A stretch of DNA of 64,000 nucleotides, taken from contig KZ538408.1 of the NCBI GenBank assembly GCA_000934665.2, forward strand, positions 1 to 64,000, given 5' to 3'. Each line of letters begins with the position of its first letter. Position 1 is the first letter of the stretch. Under the pieces are notes generated by a model. The model had not been told where the DNA came from. It searched no databases and was given only the letters and a program-made list of their open reading frames with translations. Positions 11,829 through 18,731 of the stretch are shown here, piece after piece. The stretch is from Catajapyx aquilonaris (Eukaryota). The position numbers and the translations under genes were made by a program.

Positions 11829-14800
11829 TTATTTATACCTGGACTGCAAATATGAGGAGTGCTCATCCAGGGGGTTCTTTGGCGATTTAGTCTCGCGCCA
11901 CAGGTCAGGGGTCAAATATGTGTACGTCTTCGATATCGCATCACACGTAGCTTTGGCTGAAATTAGTAAAAAGTTACAATATCGTGAAACCTATGCTTCA
12001 ATATAAATCCATGGGGTAAGTCACTTTATGCTCTCTGGTACTAGGTTAGAGAGTGCAGATGAGTTAATAAATAATGATGATGATGATGATGATGATGATG
12101 ATGATGATAATGATAATGATAATGATAATAATAATAATAATAATAATAATAATAATAATAATAATAATAATAATAATAATTTCCCTTAAGGGTGGGATAA
12201 AGGTCCCGGCGCTTATGGAGGTTGACATGTTAAATGTCGGGCCTAATAACTCCGTAATTACTGAACAGAATGACATAGAATGTTTGACACACCAGGACAC
12301 AACAACCCTTTGTCACGGCTATGTTGAGCGAAACCTGTTTTAGAGATTCAGTTAATTATGAAAACCACGAAACTGAGAGGAATTTGAAGGCATGTGAGGA
12401 AATAATGTCCTGTGAAGAATAAGGACCAAATAGCGGAGGGGATATGGTATCCGACTGCTAAACGGGAGGTCCTGGGTTCGAACCCCGGGAGCCGCCGACC
12501 CTGACCGTGGTTTTCTGTGGTTTTCCATGGTCCCACCAGGACAATTCCGGGGCCGTGTCCGTAATTATAGGCCACAGCCACTTCTTTCCGTCCCTATCCC
12601 ATCCCCAATAAGGAAAAAGTAAAAATACAAGAAAGAGTTCCAGACAGAAAAAATATGGTGGTATACCACCCCCCTAAGAGAGCCCATGGCTCTAGCACGG
12701 GGTACAAATAATAATAATTATTGTTATTATTATTATTATTATTATTATTATTATTATTATTATTATTATTATTGGGTTAGTGCTCACCCAGAGGGTATTT
12801 GCACGGACCTTTATTTTTTAATCGAAGTATACATGGTGCCATATTCGAAGCGCCCGGGCCCACGGGCAGGATGACAGGAGGGGATGTGCAAGTGCAGTGC
12901 AGTAACGGTGCTTGGTCGTTTTGCGAACTCCCCCGGGTGGTTTAGTCTGTGGATATACCACCCGAGACGAAGCCAGAGACGACCCCAGAACTCTGCACGA
13001 GATGAAGGGGGTGTCCCCGGGCTGGGATCGAACCCGGGACCTTAACATCCGTGGGCGCGCACGTTACCGCGGCGCCACTCCGTCTCCCTATTATTATTAT
13101 TATTATATGAATAAGGACCAAATGAGCAACATCGCTCAACATAGCCGTGACAAGGGTTGTTGTGTCGTGTTGTGTCAAAAATTTCATGTCATTCTGTTCA
13201 GTAATATTACGGAGTTATTAGGCCCGACATTTAACATGTCAACATCCATAAGCGCCGGGACCTTTATCCCACCCTTAATCCTTTGAGGGCAATGAGCCTC
13301 ATATGATGTCCTGTGGGTTTTTGAACTGGGCGCACTAGAGTTTAGACACAAATGGCGCAGTTTGAGGGTCAAACTCAAACTGCTCCTACCACCTCGTAGA
13401 AGGGGGCTCAAGTCGCTCAACTACCATGGCGTATGCTAACTAGTTTTTATGCTTGAGCTTTTTATGCCTGAGCTAAACATATATACCCCCGCCCGTGGCA
13501 TCAGAACAGGGTGTCCCGTATGTCTGGACACTTAGGAATTTCTCATAGTACAGTGTTTTAGTATTATTATGTAATCATATAGTAGGCTAACAATTTTGGT
13601 GCAATACTTTTTCGTTTGCTGATACCAACTATGGGCATTTTCTGGAACAGTGGCCTACCCTTTGTTACTCCAGCGTTACTTCATGGAGATGCAGTAAACA
13701 GTGTCAACAATAGCAGGGTACTCCCTTCTGTTAGTGAAGCCAGCCGTCCGCATCATTCTGGCAATGGCGGGGGAAACTAGGTGTGAGCAGTGATTGTGGT
13801 CTTGCTGTTTCGACTATCGTGCCACATTTATACTAGTCTACAGGCTATGTAGCGAAGTACAGTTCCAGGCGAGTGTAGTCAGCCATATTTTCTGCACTCC
13901 TGACGGGGTCAGGGATGAATTTAGTTGCCATTTGTGTTGGTGATGCTGTATATATATGGCTTTACGTTACCGCAACATAACATACTGTCCTTTGTTGAGG
14001 CCCTGCCAGGCACGGTTTGTCGACCGTGCGTAATTGTTTTAGTTAATTGCAGAGCGTCAGCAGACAAGCTAGATGCTTATTGTGGGTTTTGAATCCGCGA
14101 ACAATGCGGTGTCCAATGAACATTATCGTGGCTTTGCCAATCACCAAATACCGCTGATTATTATTAATTGGCTAAGTGCTGCTTGGGGGGGGGGGNNNNN
14201 NNNNNNCAGATCAAGGCAATGACAACCGTCACTTGTGAATGCGCTTATGGAATATTGTTCCATTGTTACGTGATGGCATCTCCATGAAAATGTGAAATGG
14301 GGGATTGTTGACTATAACCATGTTCCAGAAAATGCCGATAGTGGGTATCAGCAAACGGAAAAGTACCACAATTAATATAGTGACTTTAAAAATTGCACTT
14401 TAAATATTTTGTCTGGAACACCCTGTAGATGAATTTTTTCGGCACTTTACATTCAAAAGGACTACCACAAGTTAAAATGATAAATATTGGTATTGCTTTT
14501 CATTAATATCACTCCTACTACAAATTTTGGTCAAAAAAAGAAGAAAGAAAAAAAAAAAACAGTTCAAAAACCCTGCGGTCAATGGGTTAAGGCAGGTTAA
14601 GGTGTACATCTCCTTGGGGGAGTCCAAGAGGAGTTATATCTTATTACCAAAATTTCCCAAGGTGCCAGTGTTTCCTGAAGTGGACGTGTAGCAGTCCTCC
14701 ACCCCAGCCATCTGCAACAGCTTCTTGGGCACAGGGGCTCCCACGATCCCAGTCCCCCTAGGAGCAGGGATGAGGCGGACGATGACAGAGCCACATTTGG

Positions 14801-16397: not shown

Positions 16398-18731
16398 ATG
16401 AGTCGCATGGTGCCATACAAGGAAATAGCAAAGGTGAGTATGCAGCATGTTTTAACTTATTATTATAACCAAAGTTATAATGATTCGAACAAACATATGA
16501 AGAGTCAATAATAGACATCCTAGAATGTACCTCTGGAACCATTGCCTGGAAATTGCCTTATTACTACTAACATGCTGCTAAGAAGCTCCACCCACAATAT
16601 CAGCAGTGGCATGGAATTTTCGTCTCACTGCTAAGCGCAGTTACTGCTAAGGCAGGAAACATGGCTGACGTCAGAGGAACCCTCCATTTACCATTCCCCA
16701 AAAGGTAATTGACACCTCTACCATAACCAATGTGGTCTTGGAATGATAGCTGCTAAGTATCAGCAAGTCTGTTAAGTCACTTCTGACAAAAAATACAAAA
16801 ATTTCACCCATAATGAACTACAGTCCATTATTTCTGCTTTCATTAAGCATCCCCACATGACAGAGGTAACTTATATTATTTAAGGTACCTGTACCCTACT
16901 TATTGTACTGAAAAATGTTTTGTGAGGATATGCTCAGTAATACAGGGTGGTCCAACTTTTTTGTCCGAACAGCTATTGACAAATTCGGCCTAAGCTGCTT
17001 ATGTTGTAGTGCGTTACCTGGCAACCCAGTCCGGTGGGCCAATTCAAACATCAGCCCATGGAGAGCGCTTCCATTGTTGCCACTGTTTACAAATCGAGTG
17101 AGTGACGCGGACGACCCAGCGATGGGTCTCTGCCTGCTTACACATCAGTAGCAAGGGATAAGCAGGGAAAATAATGATGTTACTAAGAGCAAGCCAATGA
17201 CAATGTAAAGAACACTTAGCACTCGTCTCCATGTGCTGATGTTTGAATTGGCCCGCCGGCCGGGGTTTCCAGGTAACGCACTACAACATAAGCAGCTTAG
17301 GCCGAATTTGTCAATAGCTGTTCGGACAAAAAAGTTGGACCACCCTGTATATGAGGTGAGCAGTGACCAAGTGTTAGCATTCAGTCAAATATTGCAGCAA
17401 TTTTTGACCATTTCCATCAAAATTATTCAACATAAATGTTAACATGTACCATTCGACCCCTTGTAAAGTACAAAACTGATTGTTTGGGCCTGTCACAAAC
17501 ATGTTATGCAGTTTCCAATGAAATACAAATGAAAGGTGACAAGTGACTGCTGTTTATCATGGTTAAAACCAAGCTTGTTAAAAAACGACTTATGCAGTCT
17601 TGTATCATTAAAATTCAGTTTTTTTAAATTTAAAAAAACAACCAAACTTTCCTATTACTGACTTACCAGACCTGGGAAAAACTTTAACAGCCCAAAAAAC
17701 AAGCCAGCTTTTCTGGCCTACACAACACTACCTGTGACATACCAAATTTAAGAGAATGTGAATCATTTTACAAATATATTATTGTCATGTGCAGTTGCAA
17801 GTGAAAAATATATGCACAGCTACCAACATTACTCCCAAAATCAGCAGGGAACCCCCTCCCATCAGGTGATGCTAACACTATTTTCTTTCTTCCCTCTCTA
17901 TTCACAGGGCTACATACATGTGGACGCGGACAAAGAGTTCATCGCCATAACCATAGACCGGAAGGATGGTGTGCAAATGAAATATAGGTTGAAAAGAACC
18001 ACAACGTTCAGCAACATGATGTGGAGTTATGCTAATGATGCAGTCAGTATATCCTATTATCTCTCATTTCAAGTTGCAATTTCAGAATCATATTGGTCAA
18101 GACTACTTCCGAACTGAGACCAGAAGTTGGTCATGAAACCTATTAAGGATCCAGTGAATCCGAATCCGAAAACAGCTTGTGGATATCTCGTGCGGTTTAG
18201 GCCCTGATACCTGTCCACAGACGGACATAGACGGCCAGACAATAAGTATAAAAAAGTCTAAAATATGTTCCTGTCTAGTCGTTCTATTGTTCCTCAAAAT
18301 ATGCAAACTTATTTCATTTCACCCTGTATATCCCAAAAAAGCTTGGGCAAATCATGGTCAGTCTCAAACATTTTTATTAGGATGCCTCATGCTAAATCAT
18401 GGTGTGTGGTGGTGATATTTCCTGGTTGACCAATCTATATTTACTAAGATATTCTGCATAATATAATGGAATTACTGTACCTGCATGCATGAGGGCATTG
18501 CAGTAGCATTTAGTGGGCACTATAATTATGTAATTCAAATGGTGATAATTTCTTGATTTGACTTACTTCCAGCGGGTGCCCATCTCCACTGTTCGCTTCA
18601 TATGTGAAGGCCACCATGTTTCTGCCAAAGATACCCCTAATTCCGTGGCCTTCCAGGAAGGTAGCTCGTTTCAGATTTACCTACTAAGATGCTACCATCT
18701 GAGTCCTGCACCATGCCCTCGCGGTGATTAA
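16398..18731 (+). CDS. Divergent SUMO-like (SUMO1-type ubiquitin fold) protein lacking the C-terminal Gly-Gly, ~109 aa
   Basis: Exons 16398-16433 (caccATG; MSRMVPYKEIAK|gtgagt), 17908-18042 (GYIHVDADKEFIAITIDRKDGVQMKYRLKRTTTFSNMMWSYANDA|gtcagt) and 18573-18731 (RVPISTVRFICEGHHVSAKDTPNSVAFQEGSSFQIYLLRCYHLSPAPCPRGD*). Phase-0 introns sit at SUMO-typical positions; AATAAA at 18928. Confidence 0.8.
16941..17349. mobile_element. Tc1/mariner-type foldback MITE in SUMO-like intron 1
   Basis: TA|CAGGGTGGTCCAACTTTTTTGTCCGAAC...GTTCGGACAAAAAAGTTGGACCACCCTG|TA; related short copy at 25794-26004. Confidence 0.85.

What the first reader, a model, noticed from the sequence alone, without database searches (positions are those of the whole stretch)
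11829..18731. Head-to-head pair of two diverged housekeeping paralogs: RPS2-like and a non-conjugatable SUMO-like gene
Seen: two intact, spliced ORFs point away from each other with ATGs 836 bp apart and a CRE palindrome between them. Both are unusually diverged from normally near-invariant proteins and both keep introns, so they are not retrocopies. Known: ubiquitin-like domains are linked to ribosomal proteins (UBA52, RPS27A and FAU fusions), uS5 is a target of regulatory ubiquitylation, and tissue-restricted (often testis) ribosomal protein paralogs exist. Inference: a co-regulated, possibly germline-specific module pairing a variant small-subunit protein with a SUMO-fold protein. The alternative is a co-duplicated neighbour pair under relaxed selection.
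Basis: partly seen in the sequence, partly recalled or inferred. Interest (0 to 1): 0.8.

Follow-up and report, generated by a model that had tools for sequence, protein, structure and literature searches.

The report
Diverged RPS2 copy beside SUMO-like gene
An invertebrate genome carries an intact, intron-containing but unusually altered extra copy of ribosomal protein gene RPS2 placed back to back with a very divergent SUMO-like gene that cannot be attached to other proteins; both look like real genes, but nothing yet shows that they work together.

Summary
On the minus strand a 4-exon uS5/RPS2 gene (15562..11829, 251 aa) and on the plus strand a 3-exon SUMO-family gene (16398..18731, 109 aa, no C-terminal Gly-Gly) are both intact with GT-AG introns. 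Their ATGs are 836 bp apart. Between them lie a perfect CRE (15795) and the most CpG-rich patch of the window.

The uS5 copy differs at 14 of 139 columns that are invariant in 17 animal uS5 proteins; each of those 17 has 0-4 such changes. The changes cluster in exon 2, which forms the uS5 face of the mRNA entry channel, and they are conservative in kind.

Public runs of the same organism point to another, more canonical copy. A spliced contig joins exon 3 to exon 2, and all 4 listed amino-acid differences restore the canonical residue. DNA contigs over the exon 3 core have about twice the flanking depth.

The spliced SUMO-like protein scores 50.4 bits against a SUMO-domain profile (best of 2000 shuffles 6.6). 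No close relative was found in any collection searched.

Co-regulation, germline expression and a functional link remain untested, because no RNA evidence for either gene was obtainable. Verdict: lineage-specific diverged paralogs, moderately interesting.

The parts
15377..15562 (-). RPS2/uS5-like exon 1 (ATG at 15562..15560). It encodes a short RG-rich N-terminus and the start of the conserved core, 62 codons.
   Evidence: donor GTAAAC. Aligned with 17 animal uS5 proteins. DNA-run contig 15121-16221 is identical to the window.
15084..15201 (-). RPS2/uS5-like exon 2, the most diverged part. It corresponds to residues 90-128 of the 293-residue solved uS5 chains, the uS5 face of the mRNA entry channel.
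   Evidence: Pfam Ribosomal_S5 at 24.9 bits. Ungapped match to residues 90-128 of 293-residue uS5 chains. Entry-channel residues V106, I109, Q113 and F124 are named in PMC12447786 (passages read). The exon 2/3 junction is seen in a spliced contig of run X5.
14648..14971 (-). RPS2/uS5-like exon 3: the end of the S5 N-terminal domain and most of the S5 C-terminal domain.
   Evidence: Pfam Ribosomal_S5 48.8 bits and Ribosomal_S5_C 58.3 bits. Best identity to any of the 120 listed proteins is 88%. The DNA-run contig 14656-14956 has about twice the flanking depth and 5 differences from the window.
11829..11956 (-). RPS2/uS5-like exon 4 with a short, atypical C-terminal tail and the stop codon at 11831..11829.
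   Evidence: An AATAAA lies 247 nt downstream at 11582.
11957..14647 (-). Intron 3 of the RPS2-like gene. It is filled with high-copy repeats, (ATT/ATG)n microsatellites, two foldback elements and an assembly gap (N at 14197-14207).
   Evidence: Depths of up to about 250,000 against 21-30 for unique sequence.
15563..16397 (.). Intergenic region of 835 bp between the two start codons; putative bidirectional promoter. CpG-rich patch at about 15701-16050, with a perfect CRE TGACGTCA at 15795-15802.
   Evidence: CpG observed/expected is 1.70-2.14 in the 200-nt windows starting at 15701-15851. The window median is 0.56 and the 99th percentile 1.54. CRE. Transcription starts are not known.
16398..16433 (+). 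SUMO-like exon 1 (12 codons, ATG with A at -3, donor GTGAGT). This is the least certain part of the model.
   Evidence: No homology support is possible for 12 residues. The DNA-run contig is identical to the window.
17908..18042 (+). SUMO-like exon 2: the first half of the SUMO (beta-grasp) domain.
   Evidence: Pfam Rad60-SLD E=0.018, profile positions 1-32 of 72. SUMO2 chain 4bkg_A E=0.0037. Part of the ungapped 70-residue profile match.
18573..18731 (+). SUMO-like exon 3: the second half of the SUMO domain, then a 16-residue tail without Gly-Gly, and stop TAA at 18729-18731.
   Evidence: 31 of the 33 chains listed at E<=10 are SUMO chains (Drosophila CG4494, SUMO1, SUMO2), best E=0.018. 10 of the 14 significant hits among 1.84 billion representatives are poly-SUMO proteins. 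AATAAA lies 197 nt downstream at 18928.
16940..17350 (.). Palindromic MITE-like element inside SUMO-like intron 1 (125-nt arms, 96% complementary).
   Evidence: Depth of about 42,000-57,000 in the DNA runs.

Best explanation
The region holds two real, lineage-specific, diverged paralogs of housekeeping genes in an unannotated invertebrate genome.

(1) The uS5/RPS2 gene arose by DNA-level duplication and keeps its introns. It has changed mostly in the exon-2 segment that forms the uS5 wall of the mRNA entry channel and in the N- and C-terminal tails. The rRNA-binding core stays recognisable, and the replacements are mostly conservative. The most likely mode of action is as an alternative uS5 that can still enter 40S subunits and slightly alters the entry channel. 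This step is inferred.

(2) The second gene is an old, strongly diverged SUMO-family gene. Its product has a complete SUMO fold signature but no C-terminal Gly-Gly. It therefore cannot be matured and conjugated like SUMO and could act only by non-covalent binding. This step is also inferred.

The two genes diverge from a short CpG-rich region with a CRE, which probably serves as a promoter for one or both. That they are co-regulated or functionally coupled is not shown.
For: - Intact models with GT-AG introns.
- DNA-run contigs are identical to the window, at single-copy depth, over exon 1, the 5' part of exon 2, the intergenic region and the SUMO-like exons.
- uS5 divergence: 68-76% identity to 17 animal uS5 proteins, which are 71-98% identical to each other (mean 82.5%). 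The window protein differs at 14 of 139 invariant columns; leave-one-out gives 0-4 for each of the 17.
- Replacements are conservative: mean BLOSUM62 is 0.71 against -0.62 for random single-nucleotide nonsynonymous changes, and about 14 of 20000 simulations reach the observed value.
- Another copy exists. An 833-nt contig of run X5 joins 14648-14971 directly to 15084-15195, with 15 and 12 differences. All 4 listed codon changes (Q76K, V77D, I79V, A145N) give the residue found in the 17 animal uS5 proteins (three of the four columns are invariant there), and the 6 other listed differences are synonymous.
- The DNA contig over 14656-14956 has depth 47.9 against 21-30 for the flanks.
- Entry-channel mapping.
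- SUMO family: 50.4 bits against a profile of 37 SUMO domains, versus 6.6 for the best of 2000 shuffles, ungapped over residues 24-93 across the exon junction. Also.
- No GG in the sequence.
- CpG patch and CRE.
- Poly(A) signals about 200-250 nt after both stops.
Against: - No transcript of either window gene was seen. The only spliced contig belongs to the other uS5 copy.
- Some uS5 changes are radical at invariant positions (D77V, R94M, R96H), as expected if constraint is relaxed.
- Only 12 of the 27 differences of the X5 contig were listed, so dN/dS could not be computed. A rough count allows a ratio near 1 for exon 2.
- The exon 3 core of the window differs at 5 places from the only DNA contig laid there. 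The assembly may therefore be imperfect exactly where the copies are most alike.
- Exon 1 of the SUMO-like gene rests on signals only.
- The poly-SUMO proteins used for the profile were found with exon 3 itself.
- No ortholog of either gene was found, so conservation over time is untested.
Confidence: 0.62

Rival explanations
1. The uS5 copy is a young duplicate decaying under relaxed selection (an unprocessed pseudogene in the making) that is still intact by chance. The SUMO-like gene is an unrelated neighbour.
For: - Changes at 14 invariant columns, including radical ones.
- In exon 2, 12 nucleotide differences from the other transcript can be accounted for almost wholly by amino-acid changes, which fits neutral or faster evolution.
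- Only the other copy was seen as a spliced contig.
Against: - All splice sites and the frame are intact over 756 nt.
- Replacements are significantly conservative.
- Among the listed differences, exon 3 shows mostly synonymous ones: 6 synonymous against one changed codon.
- The upstream CpG-rich patch is kept in a genome with overall CpG depletion, observed/expected 0.62.
Confidence: 0.22
2. A co-regulated, germline-restricted module in which the variant uS5 and the SUMO-fold protein act together.
For: - Head-to-head arrangement with 836 bp between the ATGs.
- One CpG-rich patch with a CRE.
- From recalled knowledge: CRE-binding factors drive many germline genes, many ribosomal protein paralogs are gonad-specific, and ubiquitin-like domains are fused to eS31, eL40 and eS30.
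Against: - No expression data of any kind exist for either gene.
- CRE palindromes are common in this window (7 sites) and also occur in mobile-element repeats.
- The two genes have very different degrees of divergence, so they did not arise together.
- No SUMO domain lies next to uS5 in the 80 uS5 loci from metagenomes, of which only 10 are 6 kb or longer.
Confidence: 0.1
3. These are the organism's only uS5 and SUMO genes in a fast-evolving lineage, or the gene is an assembly chimera of two uS5 loci.
For: - No protein closer than 88% to exon 3 was found.
- The neighbouring DNAJC10-like exon also has no close relative, best 59%, so the lineage is poorly sampled.
- There is a cluster of 5 differences between the window and the DNA contig in exon 3.
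Against: - A more canonical spliced uS5 transcript about 89-95% identical at the DNA level exists in a run of the same organism.
- Exon 3 has about twice the flanking depth.
- A SUMO without Gly-Gly cannot be the only SUMO, because conjugation needs it (established knowledge).
- Exons 1 and 2, which carry most of the divergence, are confirmed letter for letter by DNA contigs.
Confidence: 0.06

Closest known systems
Tissue-restricted ribosomal protein paralogs (Drosophila RpS5b and eRpL22-like; vertebrate Rps27l)
   Same: An extra, intron-containing copy of a core ribosomal protein gene exists beside a canonical copy, and its protein sequence has changed. Papers seen only as search listings with the start of the abstract: PMC6760144, PMC6743460, PMC10313321.
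   Different: No uS5/RPS2 paralog of this kind turned up in the one literature search that asked for it (12 of 1,410 papers listed). Expression pattern and ribosome incorporation are unknown here. Divergence hits columns that are invariant across 17 animals.
Non-conjugatable SUMO forms: alternative-splice SUMO isoforms lacking the di-glycine, and SUMO-like domains of the Rad60 family (Pfam PF11976)
   Same: A SUMO-type beta-grasp domain without a usable C-terminal Gly-Gly, so only non-covalent action is possible. PMC9911741 was seen as a listing with the start of the abstract only.
   Different: Here it is a separate small single-domain gene (109 aa), not a splice isoform or a domain of a large protein. 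It is about 30% identical to SUMO1/2 in the alignments, and no close relative was found.
Ubiquitin-like/ribosomal protein fusions (UBA52, RPS27A, FAU); recalled, not tested here
   Same: A ubiquitin-fold protein is genetically linked to a ribosomal protein.
   Different: Those are in-frame fusions cleaved after Gly-Gly. Here there are two divergently transcribed genes, the ubiquitin-like part is of SUMO type, and it has no Gly-Gly.

Membership tests
uS5 / RPS2 (Pfam Ribosomal_S5 + Ribosomal_S5_C) | S5 N-terminal (dsRBD-like) domain | tested here: met
   Exon 3 scores 48.8 bits (cut-off 27.1) for profile positions 29-65. Exon 2 scores 24.9 bits for positions 2-27. The two are colinear.
uS5 / RPS2 (Pfam Ribosomal_S5 + Ribosomal_S5_C) | S5 C-terminal domain | tested here: met
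   58.3 bits against a cut-off of 21.5.
Canonical (housekeeping) animal uS5 | Keeps the residues that are invariant across animal uS5 | tested here: not met
   Differs at 14 of 139 columns invariant in 17 animal proteins. Each of the 17 has 0-4 such changes in leave-one-out.
Ribosomal protein paralog | A second, canonical copy in the same genome | tested here: inconclusive
   No genome is held. Indirect support comes from a spliced, more canonical contig in run X5 and from twofold depth of the exon 3 core in the DNA runs.
Ribosomal protein paralog | Incorporation into 40S subunits; restricted expression | not testable with these tools
   No run on record as RNA holds the locus.
SUMO family (Pfam Rad60-SLD, PF11976) | SUMO-type beta-grasp domain over its whole length | tested here: met
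   The spliced protein scores 50.4 bits against a profile of 37 SUMO domains, ungapped over 70 of 77 positions; the best of 2000 shuffles scores 6.6. Single exons. 10 of 14 library hits are poly-SUMO proteins. Pfam itself could only be run on single exons; exon 2 scores 15.3 bits, below the 23.8 cut-off.
Conjugatable SUMO modifier | C-terminal Gly-Gly exposed by processing | tested here: not met
   No GG at the position aligned with the SUMO C-terminus, nor anywhere in the 16-residue tail before the stop.
Bidirectional promoter gene pair | Divergent transcription starts less than 1 kb apart in a shared CpG-rich region | tested here: inconclusive
   ATGs are 836 bp apart. The CpG-rich patch at about 15701-16050 is the strongest in the window. 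Transcription starts are unknown.

The most novel reading that the evidence does not exclude
The pair is a dedicated module. The SUMO-fold protein without Gly-Gly would act as a non-covalent escort or regulator of the variant uS5, or of ribosomes that carry it. It would be expressed from one CRE-driven bidirectional promoter, giving a specialised small subunit with a remodelled mRNA entry channel. This would be an unfused counterpart of the ubiquitin-like/ribosomal protein fusions.
Probability: 0.08. Interest if true: 0.75.

Novelty: new member of a known kind. Interest (0 to 1): 0.36.

Why it matters
If the uS5 copy is expressed and built into ribosomes, it would be a natural variant of one of the most conserved ribosomal proteins, with its changes concentrated on the wall of the mRNA entry channel. 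That would be a useful test case for the debated idea of specialised ribosomes.

A free-standing SUMO-fold protein that cannot be conjugated would add to the few known non-covalent SUMO mimics.

As it stands, this is a well-supported annotation of two lineage-specific paralogs. It is not a demonstrated system.

Tried and rejected
- No whole genome is held for the window, so the direct search for canonical copies could not be run.
- No RNA holder is listed for the locus. In the RNA-like run X5 no contig lies on the SUMO-like exons or on unique intergenic sequence. This says nothing about expression.
- Earlier notes of the scan: nothing by place, sequence or words.
- Word-based protein search with SUMO-like exon 3 for proteins of 92 residues or more: 4 candidates, none scored.
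- Metagenome contigs with SUMO-like exon 3: 598 pattern matches, none confirmed.
- Ancestral adjacency test: 80 uS5 loci from metagenome contigs (208,534 bases; only 10 loci of 6 kb or more) have no SUMO-profile hit better than E=0.47, while the control on the window finds both SUMO-like exons. The sample is too small and of unknown organisms, so it is only weak evidence.
- No other uS5-like or SUMO-like exon lies elsewhere in the window.
- Rfam at gathering threshold found no snoRNA or other RNA in the introns, only a tRNA at 428-509.
- The ESM Atlas look-up of exon 3 gave Rad60-SLD/ubiquitin clusters at 0.90 and below, which is a lead only.
- Structure prediction and complex prediction were not run, because the spliced proteins cannot be handed to those tools and half-domains would be meaningless.
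- dN/dS was not computed, because only 12 of the 27 differences of the X5 contig were listed.
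Full report
**What is there.** The window is animal DNA: spliced genes, SINE-like and MITE-like repeats, and overall CpG depletion (observed/expected 0.62). Between 11829 and 18731 two genes point away from each other.

- On the minus strand, four exons (15562..15377, 15201..15084, 14971..14648, 11956..11829) join into a 756-nt frame of 251 codons.
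- On the plus strand, three exons (16398..16433, 17908..18042, 18573..18731) give 109 codons.
- All five introns start with GT and end with a pyrimidine tract plus AG.
- Poly(A)-signal hexamers lie 247 and 197 nt after the stops.

**The minus-strand gene is a uS5/RPS2 gene, and it is abnormal.**
- Exon 3 matches Pfam Ribosomal_S5 (48.8 bits) and Ribosomal_S5_C (58.3 bits). Exon 2 matches the start of Ribosomal_S5.
- In a search of 5.8 billion proteins with exon 3, 4787 of 4896 candidates scored E<=0.001. Among the 120 listed, none was more than 88% identical. Neither this protein nor a close ortholog is therefore in that collection.
- I aligned the spliced protein with 17 named or full-length animal uS5 proteins chosen from those 120. 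It is 68-76% identical to them, while they are 71-98% identical to each other, mean 82.5%.
- It differs at 14 of the 139 columns that are invariant in all 17: K47R, L75M, D77V, V79I, R94M, R96H, F97Y, F100I, R140K, N145A, T158S, G159A, S179G, I192V. The same leave-one-out count for each of the 17 is 0-4.
- The N-terminal RG-rich region and the C-terminal tail are short and atypical.

**Where the changes lie.** Exon 2 aligns without gaps to residues 90-128 of the 293-residue uS5 chains in solved mammalian ribosomes, so window residue n in exon 2 corresponds to residue n+27 there.

A structural paper states that the mRNA entry channel is formed by uS3, uS5 and helix 18, and that uS5 V106, I109, Q113 and F124 face it (PMC12447786; I read passages only). 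In the window copy, V106 and F124 are replaced (I79, Y97). Neighbouring invariant residues are also replaced (the equivalents of L102, D104, R121, R123, F127).

Exon 2 differs from solved vertebrate uS5 at 11 of 39 residues. Exon 3 differs from the best insect proteins at 13 of 107. The entry-channel wall is therefore the hot spot.

**Is it decaying?** The replacements are much more conservative than chance.
- For the 14 invariant columns, mean BLOSUM62 is 0.71 against -0.62 for random single-nucleotide nonsynonymous changes. A fraction of 0.0007 of 20000 simulations reach the observed value.
- For 28 columns with at least 80% consensus, the figures are 0.39 against -0.56, with a fraction of 0.0011.

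Together with the intact frame and splice sites, this argues that the protein has been filtered by selection. Part of these changes could have arisen in the lineage before the duplication, which I could not separate.

**Is there another copy?** No genome is held, so I used public runs.
- Four DNA runs of one sample hold 90-94% of the words of 14600-16450. A fifth run of another study, of the same coded organism, holds 7%.
- Laid on 11700-18900, the DNA runs X1 and X2 give contigs identical to the window over 15121-16221, 16195-16967, 17325-18220 and 18198-18837, at depths of about 20-37. The diverged exon 1, most of exon 2, the intergenic region and the SUMO-like exons are therefore real DNA at single-copy depth.
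- Over the exon 3 core (14656-14956), the only contig laid has depth 47.9/48.8 and 5 differences from the window: three synonymous, and two in one codon that turn A145 into the canonical N.
- Run X5 behaves like RNA. It has no cover on unique non-coding sequence. Its depth ratio to the DNA runs varies about a hundredfold between repeat families.
- X5 holds an 833-nt contig that joins 14648-14971 directly to 15084-15195, exactly my exon 3/exon 2 junction, with 15 and 12 differences.
- Of the 12 differences that the tool listed, 6 are synonymous. The other 6 change 4 codons (Q76K, V77D, I79V, A145N), each time to the residue found in the 17 animal uS5 proteins; three of these four columns are invariant there.
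- The 12 differences in exon 2 equal the minimum needed to make that segment canonical. This is an inference, because 15 of the 27 differences were not listed.

My reading is that the organism has at least one other, more canonical and transcribed uS5 gene, about 89-95% identical in exons 2-3. The window gene is the derived copy.

It remains unexplained why the window's own exon 3 variant is missing from the DNA contigs. Either it was dropped as the rarer path, or the assembly is imperfect there.

**The plus-strand gene is a SUMO-family gene without Gly-Gly.**
- Each exon alone is weak but colinear. Exon 2 hits Rad60-SLD positions 1-32 (E=0.018) and SUMO2 (E=0.0037).
- Of the 33 solved chains that exon 3 lists at E<=10, 31 are SUMO chains, best E=0.018, aligned to SUMO1 residues 57-95.
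- Against 1.84 billion representatives, exon 3 gives 14 hits at E<=0.001. Ten of them are proteins with 2-6 Rad60-SLD repeats. The other four (SRCR, reverse-transcriptase-like and two with no clear family) are probably chance or low-complexity matches.
- I built a profile from 37 SUMO domains of nine of those proteins, collected with a seed domain of one of them rather than with the window protein. The spliced window protein scores 50.4 bits against it, ungapped over residues 24-93 across the exon 2/3 junction. The best of 2000 shuffles scores 6.6. This also validates the splice model.
- At the place where SUMO ends in Gly-Gly there is no glycine pair, and none follows in the 16-residue tail.
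- No close relative exists among proteins of 92 residues or more, among single-domain representatives, or in metagenome contigs.
- Because conjugation needs Gly-Gly (established knowledge), this cannot be the organism's only SUMO.

**The region between the genes.** The 200-nt windows starting at 15701-15851 have CpG observed/expected 1.70-2.14, the highest in the window (median 0.56, 99th percentile 1.54). The perfect CRE at 15795 lies inside this patch.

CRE palindromes are enriched in the window: 7 against 0.51 expected, and 0 of 100 shuffles reach 7. However, four of them belong to two inverted-repeat pairs of mobile-element type, and one more lies in SUMO-like intron 1 at 16666. The motif is thus a common element here and not a mark of this pair.

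Upstream of the uS5 ATG there is a possible 5'-UTR acceptor. Transcription starts are unknown.

**Context.**
- The neighbouring gene on the minus strand at about 34.2-42.7 kb is DNAJC10-like, with a DnaJ domain plus thioredoxin domains.
- Its 262-residue exon is at best 59% identical to proteins of brachiopods, crustaceans, cnidarians, annelids and molluscs among the 120 listed of 171 hits.
- The organism is therefore an invertebrate without a close annotated relative. That level of identity to distant phyla gives no sign of an unusually fast lineage.
- There is no second uS5-like or SUMO-like exon in the window.
- In 80 uS5 loci from metagenome contigs, no SUMO domain lies nearby. Only 10 of these loci are 6 kb or longer.

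**Verdict.** Co-regulation, germline restriction and functional coupling rest on no data.

The two genes differ greatly in divergence, which argues against joint duplication. The uS5 copy is young at the DNA level, whereas the SUMO-like gene is old or very fast-evolving.

The literature searches (listings and abstract starts only, apart from the passages of PMC12447786) show that tissue-specific ribosomal protein paralogs and non-conjugatable SUMO forms are known kinds. I therefore file this as new members of known kinds, of moderate interest.

Noticed in passing
window 34200-42700, minus strand: Multi-exon DNAJC10 (ERdj5)-like gene. The DnaJ exon is at 42313-42639 and thioredoxin-domain exons are at 42019-42288, 40322-41107, 37553-37999 and 34279-34608. 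Best identity of the 262-residue exon to any listed protein is 59%.
   Followed up: partly
window 428-509, minus strand: tRNA-Ser (anticodon CGA), 62.5 bits in Rfam, lying in a CpG-rich patch.
   Followed up: no
window 16940-17350: Palindromic MITE-like element (125-nt arms, 96% complementary, 161 nt between them) inside SUMO-like intron 1. Depth of about 42,000-57,000 in DNA runs against 21-30 for unique sequence, so it has on the order of thousands of copies.
   Followed up: partly
window 12060-13290: Foldback element in intron 3 of the uS5 gene. Arms 12186-12258 / 13206-13278 are 99% complementary and arms 12257-12310 / 13152-13205 are 91% complementary. Long (ATG)n/(ATT)n microsatellites adjoin the left arm and lie inside the element. 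Between the arms are two tRNA-like SINE segments of extremely high copy number, with depth of 158,000-308,000.
   Followed up: partly
window 13605-13649 and 14321-14365; gap 14197-14207: Another inverted-repeat pair (45 nt, 93% complementary) brackets the assembly gap (11 N preceded by a G run). The DNA-run contigs show many alternative joints here, so this part of intron 3 may be misassembled.
   Followed up: no
window 6077/6531 and 39383/39692: Two pairs of perfect CRE palindromes, each pair sitting in mutually reverse-complementary flanks about 300-450 bp apart within CpG-rich patches. They look like terminal inverted repeats of mobile elements that carry a CRE.
   Followed up: no
window 14656-14956: Cluster of 5 differences between the window and the only DNA-run contig laid there, which has twofold depth. 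About 4.5 kb of neighbouring unique sequence shows none. See the notebook entry under 'unexplained'.
   Followed up: partly
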